The position numbers and the translations under genes were made by a program. DNA of 64,000 nucleotides from a virus (taxonomy: Duplodnaviria; Caudoviricetes): IMG/VR virus record IMGVR_UViG_3300028581_000010. One strand, 5' to 3'. The notes under the pieces were generated by a model, which searched no databases, was not told the origin of the DNA, and saw only the letters and a list, made by a program, of their open reading frames with translations. This document shows, one piece after another, positions 41,318 through 49,820 of this stretch. Each line of letters opens with the position of its first letter. Within the stretch, counting starts at the first letter, position 1.

Positions 41318-41710
41318 ATGGACACATTACAACAAAAAATAACGCTCTTGCGTAAGGCAGGTAAGTCTTATAATGCAATAAGCGCGGAGCTAGGCTGCAG
41401 TAAGGGGACAGTATCCTATCATGTCGGCAAAGATGTTAAGCCTAAGCAGTACCGACGGATGCAGGAGCGTAGGGTATCGAACATAACAAAAGTAAAGCAA
41501 GCGCATGGAGGGAAATGTAGTGTTTGCGGCTACGCGCGTTGTCTAGCTGCCTTAGATTTCCACCACATAGATCCTTCTGTCAAAAAACATGAAGTGAGCT
41601 ACTCTCGGTATAGCGTCGAAAGGATGGCTACCGAGGCAGCTAAATGCGTACTGTTGTGCTCCAACTGTCACAGAGAGCTACACGCTGGGTTTATAGCATT
41701 ACCCAAATAA
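41318..41710 (+). CDS. HTH + HNH endonuclease inserted antisense in the tRNA cluster
   Basis: KSYNAISAELGCSKGTVSYH, CSVCGY..LDFHHIDP and CVLLCSNCHRELH. Confidence 0.9.
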   Translation: MDTLQQKITLLRKAGKSYNAISAELGCSKGTVSYHVGKDVKPKQYRRMQERRVSNITKVKQAHGGKCSVCGYARCLAALDFHHIDPSVKKHEVSYSRYSVERMATEAAKCVLLCSNCHRELHAGFIALPK

Positions 41711-45488: not shown

Positions 45489-45496
45489 AAAAGCTT

Positions 45497-45613
45497 CCTA
45501 CCGATTACTACGAAGGCGCCGATCAAGTTTGGACCTCTCTCGACATTGCCTTCCTGTTATTGTATTGGGCGAGCTACACATACTCAGTGTAACGGCCACA
45601 GGCGGATGGTAGG
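45497..45613 (-). ncRNA. unassigned ~117-nt structured RNA
   Basis: Closing stem CCTACC/GGTAGG, CGCC/GGCG and hairpin GTTACAC/GTGTAGC. Confidence 0.45.
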
Positions 45614-45640
45614 TTTACAACCGTGAACCAAAGTGTAGTA

Positions 45641-45762
45641 TGAGCGCGGCAGGATTTGAACCTGCATGACTAGCGACTGTTAGTGAATCCCAATATATAG
45701 CTAATACTATATACCCGTCTTTGTCTTATTATTTAGCGTCTTTACATTCCGCCACGCCGCTC
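45641..45762 (-). ncRNA. tRNA-like RNA with Leu-type D- and T-arms but an expanded non-canonical anticodon region
   Basis: TGGCGGAATGTAAAGACGC D-arm, GCAGG-TTCAAAT-CCTGC T-arm, GAGCG/CGCTC-A acceptor and a ~65-nt insert. Confidence 0.7.
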
Positions 45763-45786
45763 AAACTAACCACAGCAAAAATGTTT

Positions 45787-45892
45787 TGGCGGGGCTTCCG
45801 GTAGGGGCTTGGTAATCTCTAGCAACTTAAACCAATGATCCCCGCTTTACCGATGCTACGACCCGAAGCACTCGTGCTGGCCATGCCACGCC
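45787..45892 (-). ncRNA. unassigned ~106-nt rod-like RNA ending in CCA
   Basis: GGCG/CGCC, GCTTC/GAAGC, CGGTA/TACCG, GGGG/CCCC and TGGT/ACCA nested helices. Confidence 0.5.
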
Positions 45893-45909
45893 ACCAAATA
45901 ACTAAAAAG

Positions 45910-46430
45910 TTGTTGACCAAGATTAAAAGGTCCTGTTTACCCACGACAGGACAGGCTTCGGCTCCTTTCGGATAATGGCGCTATTTCCGCCTTACGCCTT
46001 GTCAGCAGGAGCCTAGGCTCCTGAGATTCTTACAAACATAAACTGATGAAACACCTCGATTTGACATACCTATACACCCGGAAGCGCCATAAGAGATTAC
46101 TCCGACCACTGGTGGCCGGTTGTATAACTCACACCTGCGTACAGGTGTACTTTGCAACTGGCGCAGTGTTACCTACGCCAGCTCTTTAAGCTTAGCTATG
46201 GACTTTAAATGAGCCTTCCTTACTTATACCTTGCAACCATAACGGATATGAGCCTTACTACCTTGCGAACTTGAGCCTTCAGCCTTGAGACATAGCACTC
46301 TGATGAGTGATATACCATAGGTTTGATACACGCTGAGAAAGCATGTTAGGTTTACAATTCCATGTAAGTTTCATATTGTCGATTATGAGTTCGCCAGATG
46401 AAAGCCACAAGGGCCTCCTCTAGTCTTTTC
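45910..46430 (-). ncRNA. candidate large (~500 nt) multi-hairpin ncRNA
   Basis: No ORF of 60 aa or more. It has at least five clean hairpins, an 8-bp long-range helix and repeated AAGG motifs. Boundaries are approximate. Confidence 0.55.
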
Positions 46431-46433
46431 TCT

Positions 46434-46605
46434 AACTGATTACGGATATGTCAAATCGAACTGTTTCAAATTGTGCAGGGCTATGTCCCTGCTGGGAGGT
46501 CTGTCGGCCTCATCCAAGGGGTTCTCTCCCCCTGTCAACTCTGGTATTAGCAGGTCTTGAGTTTTCCCTGTTTTAAACTGAGAACGACTACATGCCTGAT
46601 CAGTT
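46434..46605 (-). ncRNA. 6S-RNA-like 172-nt rod with a central bubble
   Basis: AACTGAT/ATCAGTT, ATGT/ACAT, AGTCG/CGATT, CAGGG/CCCTG, then a bubble, then CCTGCT/AGCAGG and an apical AGGGG/CCCCT. Confidence 0.55.
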
Positions 46606-46613
46606 TGAAAGTC

Positions 46614-46701
46614 TGCGCGAGGCGGGACTCGAACCCGCATGCTACTGTTATTTCGCGTCCGCCTCTAAAACGGAATTGTCTACCAATTTCAACACCCGCG
46701 C
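46614..46701 (-). tRNA. tRNA-Leu(UAG)
   Basis: GCGCGGG/CTCGCGC-A, loop TT-TAG-AG and a long variable arm. No encoded CCA. Confidence 0.92.
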
Positions 46702-47385
46702 GTTTAAACTTATACCATAACTCCTACACCATTTTCTAACTGCGTTATCAGAAACTCCGAAGGTTTTCCCTATCTGCACAAAAGATGCCGTACGTATGAG
46801 CCGTTGCAATTCGTCTTTCTCCGGGCGCACAACTTTGCGAAAGCTTGGTTTTGGTTTAGTTCTCCAGTGCGGATCTCCTTTTATTTTCTCCTTTTTAGTC
46901 CTTGTCGGCTTGGGAGGCATTTTCTGTTCGCGTCTGTCAACCAGCCTACGCCTAGTCTCCATAGCATGACAGTTAGGGCAAAGAAGCTGTAAGTTCTCTA
47001 GTCGGTTATCGAAGTGGTCAGAATTTATATGATCCAACTCCAAAATAGCGGGAGCACCTTGCCAGTCAGTTAAGCCGCATAGTTCGCATTCTTGCTTTTT
47101 GAACCCTTCCTTAATAAGCCTCTTTTTAATGTAGTTGCTATTGCATGGTGAGTTGGCCACCAGATATTTCTCTATAGGCTGCTTAGGTGGGAAAGTTTTA
47201 CCCTTATTCCAAGCTTTGCCAGTAAAGTGAGTGGTCGGCAAGTCATAAGCTTTAGCAACTTTTGCAATATAGCTTTGGGCGCCTGTCCGAGAAGATACTT
47301 CTAATTTTCGACATACCTCTGCCCACGAGCGGCACTGTTCGACAATAGGCCCCAATAATTGCTTTGTGTATTTGGTTCTTAGCAT
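46648..47385 (-). CDS. HNH endonuclease within the tRNA/ncRNA island
   Basis: CELCG..LELDHINSDHFDNRLENLQLLCPNCH and a C-terminal HTH (IGKTFGVSDNAVRKW). Confidence 0.9.
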   Translation of the reverse strand: MLRTKYTKQLLGPIVEQCRSWAEVCRKLEVSSRTGAQSYIAKVAKAYDLPTTHFTGKAWNKGKTFPPKQPIEKYLVANSPCNSNYIKKRLIKEGFKKQECELCGLTDWQGAPAILELDHINSDHFDNRLENLQLLCPNCHAMETRRRLVDRREQKMPPKPTRTKKEKIKGDPHWRTKPKPSFRKVVRPEKDELQRLIRTASFVQIGKTFGVSDNAVRKWCRSYGISLNARVLKLVDNSVLEADAK

Positions 47386-47393
47386 ACGCATAT

Positions 47394-47423
47394 ATCTTAA
47401 GGCAAGTGCGTATGCCAAGTCAA
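47394..47423 (-). promoter_or_regulatory. sigma70-like promoter TTGACT-N18-TAAGAT for the HNH gene
   Basis: The ATG at 47385 lies 8 nt after the -10. Confidence 0.5.
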
Positions 47424-47851: not shown

Positions 47852-48271
47852 TGGTGGAGGTAGCGGGAGTCGAACCCGCGTGTTCAATACTTCTCTAACA
47901 CCTCTACGTGCGTAGTTTGATATTATTTTCGACTGTGGTCTGCTATCAAACAAACGGTGCCACAGCTTAGGCAGACCCGTCTGCCAGGGTGCGGATTACC
48001 GCCATCTTTTACCACGATTGACGCCGAGCGCTTTTCTTCACTCAGCCAGGTTACGTGACATCCTGAGTTCGATGACTGTTACAGTCCGCTTACGCGGCGA
48101 GCAGTTCGCGATCAACGCTCCCGAAGGAGGCGATCATCGCGTCAGCTTCTGCAACCGTCATTGCTTGATCCATAGGATTAGCATTTAGTTTTTGTTAGCT
48201 TTCAAGGTGCCCCGCTAACGAACCCACACGCAGTGCTTCAATACATATTGAGTCGAAGCCAGTATACCCCC
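47852..48271 (-). ncRNA. ssrA: tmRNA (420 nt), tag ANPMDQAMTVAEADAMIASFGSVDRELLAA*
   Basis: 5' GGGGGTA..GGCTTCGAC and 3' GCGGGTTCGACTCCCGC-TACCTCC-A-CCA with G3.U70. Resume codon GCT at 48182 follows AAAAACTAAAT, and the tag ORF ends in AA*. Confidence 0.95.
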
Positions 48272-49171: not shown

Positions 49172-49618
49172 TCACTGTGGAAGCTGTTTTTGTACCTCTT
49201 TGGAAAGGAGCTGGCCTGGTATATTTCCACCGGACATTTCCTTGGCGAGCTTCATCACATCGCCCATCTGTTTGCGTGAAGTAGCCTCGAGCTTCGATAT
49301 TGCCTGAGAGACGATTGTCTCGATCTCTCCCTCGGTTGGGACCGGAGGCATGTAGGCAGCGAGCATAACCTTCTCCATTCCCTCCTTGGCGGCCCGTGCC
49401 GTTTCTCCGACTTTTACATAGGAGTCGATGGAGTCCTGTCTCTTCTTGCACTCCTTGGCGACCACCTGTAAAAACTCGGTCTGGTCGAGCTCGTGGCGCA
49501 GTTCGATAGCCTTGTTTACCATCGCGCTCTTGAGCATGCGCAATACGTCGCGCTTCATACGGTCGCCAGTCATCATGGCAACCTTGATATCCTCGTCGAT
49601 TTTTTGTGAGGGTAGCAT
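49172..49618 (-). CDS. yqeY: GatB/YqeY domain protein
   Basis: D.K.AM..GD....VLRMLKSA..KE.KKR.DSI..Y..E...L..YMP..Q..G.VMK. Confidence 0.88.
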   Translation of the reverse strand: MLPSQKIDEDIKVAMMTGDRMKRDVLRMLKSAMVNKAIELRHELDQTEFLQVVAKECKKRQDSIDSYVKVGETARAAKEGMEKVMLAAYMPPVPTEGEIETIVSQAISKLEATSRKQMGDVMKLAKEMSGGNIPGQLLSKEVQKQLPQ

Positions 49619-49622
49619 ATTG

Positions 49623-49820
49623 TTAGCAGGGTTGAACAATCAGCTGGTTGTGGTTGAATTCAGGGCAAGTTGCTTCCGCAGCAGTTTGCTCCAGTGGTTT
49701 GTCCGAAGGCTGCCCAGCTAGCCTTCTCGTCTCTGAGCGCTCGCACTCGATCATACACCCACATTGGGGGCATTCGCCGCGCATCTTCTGTCGTGTGTTT
49801 CCGTTTTTTAAGATTTGCAT
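49623..49820 (-). CDS. small Zn-ribbon protein
   Basis: ECPQCGCMIEC...TCPE. Confidence 0.55.
   Translation of the reverse strand: MQILKNGNTRQKMRGECPQCGCMIECERSETRRLAGQPSDKPLEQTAAEATCPEFNHNQLIVQPC

What the first reader, a model, noticed from the sequence alone, without database searches (positions are those of the whole stretch)
45641..45762. tRNA elbow mimic: Leu-type D/T arms with the anticodon arm replaced by a ~65-nt insert
Seen: an intact T-arm, a D-arm of the TGGCGGAA..AGACGC type, an acceptor stem with a bulge and A73. There is no anticodon stem-loop; instead there is an AT-rich insert with a GTATATAG/CTATATAT hairpin. Known: LeuRS recognises A73 and the elbow rather than the anticodon. 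Inference: a chargeable decoy for tRNA-sensing defences or synthetases, or a tRNA with a non-standard intron.
Basis: partly seen in the sequence, partly recalled or inferred. Interest (0 to 1): 0.6.

Follow-up and report, generated by a model that had tools for sequence, protein, structure and literature searches.

The report
Phage tRNA-shaped RNA with variable insert
This 122-base stretch is a member of a widespread, uncatalogued family of phage RNAs that keep the top half of a leucine tRNA but carry a different folded insert where the anticodon arm should be, most likely using the tRNA shape as a frame that gets the RNA cut out and protected rather than as a leucine carrier.

Summary
Observation confirmed: minus strand, 45762-45641; the insert is 70 nt. 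It is neither a decayed tRNA nor an intron-containing one. The same D arm, T arm and acceptor frame occurs in over 100 phage contigs and 49 GTDB genomes, with unrelated inserts of 19 to over 200 nt. The acceptor stem pairs 7/7 in 56 of 56 independent lineages (control 2%). The window copy belongs to a subfamily whose D loop lacks G18G19 and whose T loop always has A57 (29/29); ten complete phages carrying it have no ordinary tRNA. Leucine charging is doubtful: no GG, A73 only about 73% (24/25 in true tRNA-Leu), encoded CCA rare. Inserts show compensatory changes within several lineages and no complementarity to their own genomes. Best reading: a host-processed tRNA frame displaying a folded, protein-binding cargo; rival: a top-half decoy. 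This copy alone has a one-base acceptor bulge and an insert without relatives, so it may be decaying. No expression data could be obtained. No Rfam family and no paper found. The scan noted this family before on other DNA (e1-130305, e1-3414005, e1-2912700).

The parts
45641..45762 (-). whole tRNA-shaped RNA gene, 122 nt, G1 at 45762 and discriminator A73 at 45641
45755..45762 (-). 5' strand of acceptor stem, 8 nt, one G more than the subfamily consensus (bulge)
45736..45752 (-). Leu-type D arm, 3-bp stem, 11-nt loop with A14 and A15 but without G18G19 (subfamily mark)
45666..45735 (-). 70-nt insert in place of anticodon and variable arms; ends in U48 (Levitt partner of A15)
45692..45715 (-). 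AU-rich 10-bp hairpin with 4-nt loop inside the insert
45669..45684 (-). weak 4-bp hairpin at the variable-arm position
45649..45665 (-). T arm, 5-bp stem, loop with U54, U55, C56, A57, A58
45642..45648 (-). 3' strand of acceptor stem, identical to the subfamily consensus

Best explanation
It is a phage non-coding RNA gene of a large family built on the top half of tRNA-Leu. It is co-transcribed with the phage's tRNA/tmRNA island; the acceptor, D and T arms fold as in tRNA, so the host's tRNA-processing enzymes (RNase P at the 5' end, 3' trimming nucleases) cut it out and the compact fold protects it. The frame displays a lineage-specific folded insert, as the engineered tRNA scaffold does. 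The insert is the working part and most likely binds a protein (host defence or RNA-handling factor) rather than pairing with phage RNA. The RNA is not a translation adaptor and is probably not leucylated. Shown: family membership, covariation of the frame, tRNA-like 5' junction, structural selection on some inserts. Inferred: expression, processing, and any role of the insert.
For: Acceptor 7/7 in 56 of 56 true lineages versus 1.8% for swapped strands, several pair types at every position (the one 4/7 case, L062, is an ordinary tRNA). U48 in 55/57 though not in the search pattern. U(-1) 39/57 and G(+1) 43/57, like ordinary viral tRNAs (99/174, 131/174). A D-arm-only search gave 35 loci, and a matching T arm and acceptor follow the D arm in every lineage tabulated, at 32-223 nt (one at 505). 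Ten complete 46-63 kb carriers from at least three unrelated groups have no ordinary tRNA. Inserts fold slightly better than shuffles (mean z -0.69, n = 78) and show 16 compensatory pairs versus 5.5 expected (L229/L242 6 with none broken). In 13 Lachnospiraceae loci the same frame holds a conserved hairpin-plus-ACAGCA insert, in arrays before a DUF2828 gene in 9.
Against: The window's insert has no relative (best z = 3.1 among 116 comparisons), so selection on it is untested. Some members have inserts of only about 19-21 nt, too small for much cargo. No partner gene is shared: DUF2828 in 1 of 12 complete subfamily phages, no recurrent neighbour. The acceptor bulge is found in no subfamily relative. 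The covariation counts come from structures predicted on the same alignments and from few lineages.
Confidence: 0.45

Rival explanations
1. Top-half decoy: the frame itself is the working part. It soaks up host proteins that read the acceptor stem, T arm or elbow (tRNA-cutting defences, synthetases, elongation or modification factors); the insert is filler that removes the anticodon.
For: The frame is conserved in sequence beyond what pairing needs: 12 of 29 subfamily lineages share an identical acceptor although their phages share few proteins at 25-47% identity or none. Inserts shrink to about 19 nt. D and T loops covary (A57 in 29/29 versus 6/48). Cas12a3 grips T arm, acceptor and CCA without needing the anticodon (PMC12851939).
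Against: Compensatory changes inside inserts show they are not always filler. The subfamily has lost G18G19 and tolerates changes at C56 (3 of 29 lineages, versus 3 loci among GG-type members), so its elbow is an imperfect mimic. Encoded CCA is rare. Identical frames could also reflect recent horizontal spread.
Confidence: 0.25
2. Cis-acting punctuation: the tRNA shape is an RNase P and 3'-nuclease signal that cuts a long phage transcript into units or stabilises neighbouring RNAs; the released RNA has no job.
For: Nearest long ORFs are co-oriented in 49/58 upstream and 61/66 downstream cases. In BS-TP2 it fills the gap between two replication-region genes with about 26 and 19 nt to spare. In the window it sits between other folded RNAs.
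Against: It does not explain inserts of 150-220 nt with conserved structure or tandem copies. Co-orientation is expected of anything transcribed in a phage.
Confidence: 0.12
3. This particular copy is a decaying pseudogene of the family, recently acquired and no longer selected.
For: One-base insertion in the acceptor, absent from all 29 subfamily lineages and from IMG/VR; AT-rich insert with an unpaired 5' part and no homologue; absent from relatives of this phage.
Against: Apart from the extra G, every frame base equals the subfamily consensus, and the predicted fold survives the bulge. The bulge may also be an assembly error, which could not be checked.
Confidence: 0.12
4. A leucylated RNA or a tRNA-Leu precursor with a non-standard intron that is removed to give a working tRNA.
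For: A73, A14, A15-U48 and U54-A58 are present; E. coli tRNA-Leu lacking anticodon and variable arms can still be charged (PMC9976931). Relatives of this phage carry T arms preceded by sequence that looks like a group I intron 3' end (resemblance from my own knowledge).
Against: No single excision from the window insert yields a canonical anticodon arm; family-wide 2 of 72 versus 1.0 expected. 70 nt is far too short for a self-splicing intron (own knowledge). G18G19 is missing; A73 is 42/57 and 21/29 versus 24/25 in true tRNA-Leu, and G73, an antideterminant, occurs.
Confidence: 0.06

Closest known systems
Bacterial class II tRNA-Leu (Rfam RF00005)
   Same: D-arm type, A15-U48, T arm, 7-bp acceptor, A73; clearly the ancestor of the frame.
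   Different: No anticodon arm; 70-nt insert; no G18G19; A73 relaxed in the family; 16 bits against a cut-off of 29.
Engineered tRNA scaffold (Ponchon and Dardel; PMC3753655)
   Same: Acceptor, D and T arms with foreign RNA at the anticodon position, processed and protected by host machinery.
   Different: Artificial; it keeps a closing anticodon stem, which the natural inserts do not consistently have.
tmRNA (RF00023)
   Same: tRNA-like top half with a large insert in place of the anticodon arm.
   Different: No G3-U70 pair in any member; has a true D stem; no tag frame; the phage has a separate tmRNA at 47852-48271.
YrlA and other bacterial Y RNAs (RF02553; PMC4201824)
   Same: tRNA mimic keeping D and T arms, encoded by phages too; one Lachnospiraceae branch of this family lies before a Ro60-like DUF2828 gene.
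   Different: YrlA has T before D with the acceptor closed by a loop; here the order is that of tRNA. No Ro60-like gene among the window's proteins over 200 aa; DUF2828 in 1 of 12 complete subfamily phages.
Phage T4 species 1 and 2 RNAs (rnaC, rnaD)
   Same: Stable 120-140 nt RNAs of unknown function inside a phage tRNA cluster; rnaC ends in a T arm.
   Different: Neither has this Leu-type D arm or frame.

Membership tests
tRNA-Leu | Anticodon arm: 5-bp stem, 7-nt loop with U33 | tested here: not met
tRNA-Leu | A73, A14, A15-U48, U54-A58 | tested here: met
   determinants from PMC9976931
tRNA-Leu | G18G19 in the D loop | tested here: not met
   single G in the D loop, as in the whole subfamily
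tRNA-Leu | Charged with leucine | not testable with these tools
   needs an aminoacylation assay
Intron-containing tRNA | Removing one segment restores a canonical cloverleaf | tested here: not met
   0 products for the window; 2 of 72 versus 1.0 expected
tmRNA | G3-U70 alanine pair and RF00023 match | tested here: not met
YrlA / Y RNA | T-before-D order, RF02553 match, nearby Ro60 gene | tested here: not met
   only 64 kb of the phage was seen
Phage tRNA-frame RNAs with variable insert (uncatalogued) | Leu-type D arm, T arm, U48, U(-1)/G(+1), no anticodon arm | tested here: met
Phage tRNA-frame RNAs with variable insert (uncatalogued) | Perfect 7-bp acceptor stem | tested here: inconclusive
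   seven pairs form but with a one-base bulge not seen in the subfamily
Phage tRNA-frame RNAs with variable insert (uncatalogued) | Expressed and cut out as a discrete RNA | not testable with these tools

The most novel reading that the evidence does not exclude
Phages use the top half of tRNA-Leu as a general, exchangeable chassis: a near-invariant frame, processed by any host, into which different functional RNAs (protein-binding decoys against host defences) are swapped. The subfamily seen here has in addition rebuilt its D-loop/T-loop corner so that it is processed like a tRNA but not charged or read as one.
Probability: 0.25. Interest if true: 0.8.

Novelty: new variant of a known kind. 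Interest (0 to 1): 0.55.

Why it matters
tRNA finders and Rfam miss or mislabel these genes, so a large class of phage RNAs is unannotated. If the frame-and-cargo reading holds, it is a natural version of a laboratory tool and a catalogue of phage RNAs that may act on host defences. It also offers a handle on the old question of what tRNA-like stable RNAs in phage tRNA clusters do. A cultured phage with an unannotated member (Bacteroides phage BS-TP2) makes it directly testable.

Tried and rejected
Rfam: only tRNA hits for the window and 37 related loci. BLAST of the region against GenBank phages: no homologue. Antisense targets in the phage's own DNA: none; longest matches 11.5 own versus 11.2 foreign, with G-U 15.5 versus 15.5. 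Intron excision: rejected. Orthologue in related phages: none in 58 loci around a neighbouring core gene or in 20 whole records, where the three D-arm hits were ordinary tRNA-Leu. Fixed protein partner: none; YqeY, though near in the window, is not near the other members fetched; DUF2828 is not enriched and the ACAGC handle is at chance level in phage inserts, 5 versus 5.8. A second copy with the same bulge: none. By inspection I found no Watson-Crick D-loop/T-loop 'kiss' that fits all three T-loop variants of this subfamily. No whole genome is held. Nine literature searches ran (one more failed on a short term) and found no description of the family; the library lacks most subscription journals.

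Full report
Setting. The window is part of a large bacteriophage: terminase, DNA polymerase A, DnaB helicase, primase and RecA-like genes; relatives reach about 200 kb. Between 41714 and 48271 lie five tRNAs and a tmRNA, all on the minus strand, with two HNH genes. The element sits in this island, about 150 nt upstream of tRNA-Glu.

Observation. On the minus strand G1 is 45762 and A73 is 45641. The D arm, T arm and acceptor all form in the predicted structure with high probability, the acceptor with one bulged G. The insert is 70 nt, with a 10-bp AU-rich hairpin and no anticodon arm.

It is a family. The D and T arms are conserved there by construction, so only positions outside the pattern count. 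After grouping by insert, 56 of 56 true lineages pair the acceptor 7/7, against 1.8% when strands are swapped between lineages, with several pair types at each position; U48 is present in 55/57, U(-1) in 39/57, G(+1) in 43/57 (the 57th, L062, is an ordinary tRNA). The 5' junction matches that of 174 ordinary viral tRNAs from the same loci, as expected for RNase P substrates. Most members stand alone, away from tRNA clusters, co-oriented with neighbouring genes.

The subfamily. Searching with the window's unusual D arm alone gave 35 loci. Among 29 independent lineages the T loop has A57 in all, versus 6 of 48 in GG-type members; 28 pair 7/7; inserts run from 32 to 223 nt, one 505. C56 varies in 3 of 29, whereas a search for GG-type members without C56 found 3 loci, consistent with loss of the G19-C56 pair. 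L058 and L188 share a homologous insert but have different D-loop types, so the two types are one family. Ten complete 46-63 kb carriers encode no ordinary tRNA and fall into at least three unrelated groups. Relatives of the window's phage lack the element, so it was probably gained horizontally.

Charging. E. coli LeuRS ignores the anticodon but needs A73, A15-U48, G18G19 and the D/T-loop pairs (PMC9976931). The window RNA lacks G18G19. A73 is 42/57 and 21/29 in the family versus 24/25 in true tRNA-Leu; encoded CCA is 2/57 and 4/29 versus 70/174. These controls come from other phages and hosts, so they are suggestive only, but leucylation is unlikely to be what is selected.

Intron. No single excision gives a canonical tRNA from this insert; family-wide the rate is at chance.

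The inserts. They fold slightly better than shuffles (mean z -0.69; window -2.1). Where related inserts exist, they show 16 compensatory pairs against 5.5 expected, mainly in three lineages. They are not complementary to their own genomes. In Lachnospiraceae the same frame holds a conserved hairpin-plus-ACAGCA motif in tandem arrays before a DUF2828 gene, the one case where a cargo has a candidate partner; that link does not extend to the window's subfamily. Very short inserts of about 19-21 nt also exist, which favours a role for the frame itself.

Mechanism. Most likely (0.45): a host-processed, nuclease-resistant tRNA frame displaying a lineage-specific folded RNA that binds a protein. Rivals: decoy by the frame alone (0.25; Cas12a3 shows that defences can read the top half only, PMC12851939), transcript punctuation (0.12), a decaying copy (0.12; the bulge is unique and the insert has no relative), charged or spliced tRNA (0.06). 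Family membership and selection on the frame are shown; expression, processing and function are inferred.

Comparison and novelty. It works like the engineered tRNA scaffold (PMC3753655) and resembles tmRNA, YrlA (PMC4201824) and T4 rnaC/rnaD in being a tRNA mimic, but fails the defining tests of each. No Rfam family covers it and I found no paper. Earlier notes of this scan describe the same family in other phages; I had reached the family reading before seeing them, and they are not independent support. New here are the GG-less subfamily with its fixed A57, the counts against leucylation, the negative antisense test on whole genomes, and cultured examples (BS-TP2; Vibrio phage 2.275.O). Verdict: real; a new variant of tRNA-mimic RNA; function unproven; interest 0.55.

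Noticed in passing
window 45900-46600 (-): ORF-free stretch that folds strongly (z = -3.85), with repeated AAGG modules; no Rfam match; only its first 110 nt resemble a stretch of L145.
   Followed up: partly
window 45780-45900 (-): End-paired unit of about 115 nt directly upstream of the element; folding no better than shuffles.
   Followed up: partly
window 45490-45640 (-): Spacer with weak similarity (E about 0.003-0.009) to L146, L147, L148 and L167 of related phages; possibly another small RNA.
   Followed up: no
L183:3560-4120 (-), also L177, L190, L194, L198, L200, L201, L206, L207: Lachnospiraceae arrays of tRNA-frame RNAs, each with a conserved hairpin-plus-ACAGCA insert, directly before a DUF2828/DUF7788 gene.
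   Followed up: partly
L241:1567-2125 (+): A frame enclosing 505 nt that appears to include a small open reading frame; could be a cargo with an mRNA or two half elements.
   Followed up: no
L230:9450-10520 (-): Four frame RNAs in one phage, two of only 69-71 nt with inserts near 20 nt.
   Followed up: no
L126, L152, L157 near 11910 (-); L136, L162 near 7325 (-): T arm preceded by sequence resembling the 3' end of an Azoarcus-type group I intron (resemblance from memory): probably intron-containing tRNAs in relatives of this phage.
   Followed up: no
window 47852-48271 (-): tmRNA with a 30-residue tag, longer than usual.
   Followed up: no
window 41318-41710 (+), 46648-47418 (-), 49172-49639 (-): Two HNH endonuclease genes at the tRNA island, the second running into tRNA-Leu(TAG), and a YqeY-domain gene nearby.
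   Followed up: partly
L324:1254-1290 (-), T4 rnaD 3' end: T4 species 2 RNA has a short stem followed by ACAGCA near its 3' end, reminiscent of the motif in the Lachnospiraceae inserts; may be chance.
   Followed up: no
L255:495-870 (+), Vibrio phage 2.275.O: Two unannotated tRNA-frame RNAs next to a YqeY-like gene in a cultured phage.
   Followed up: no
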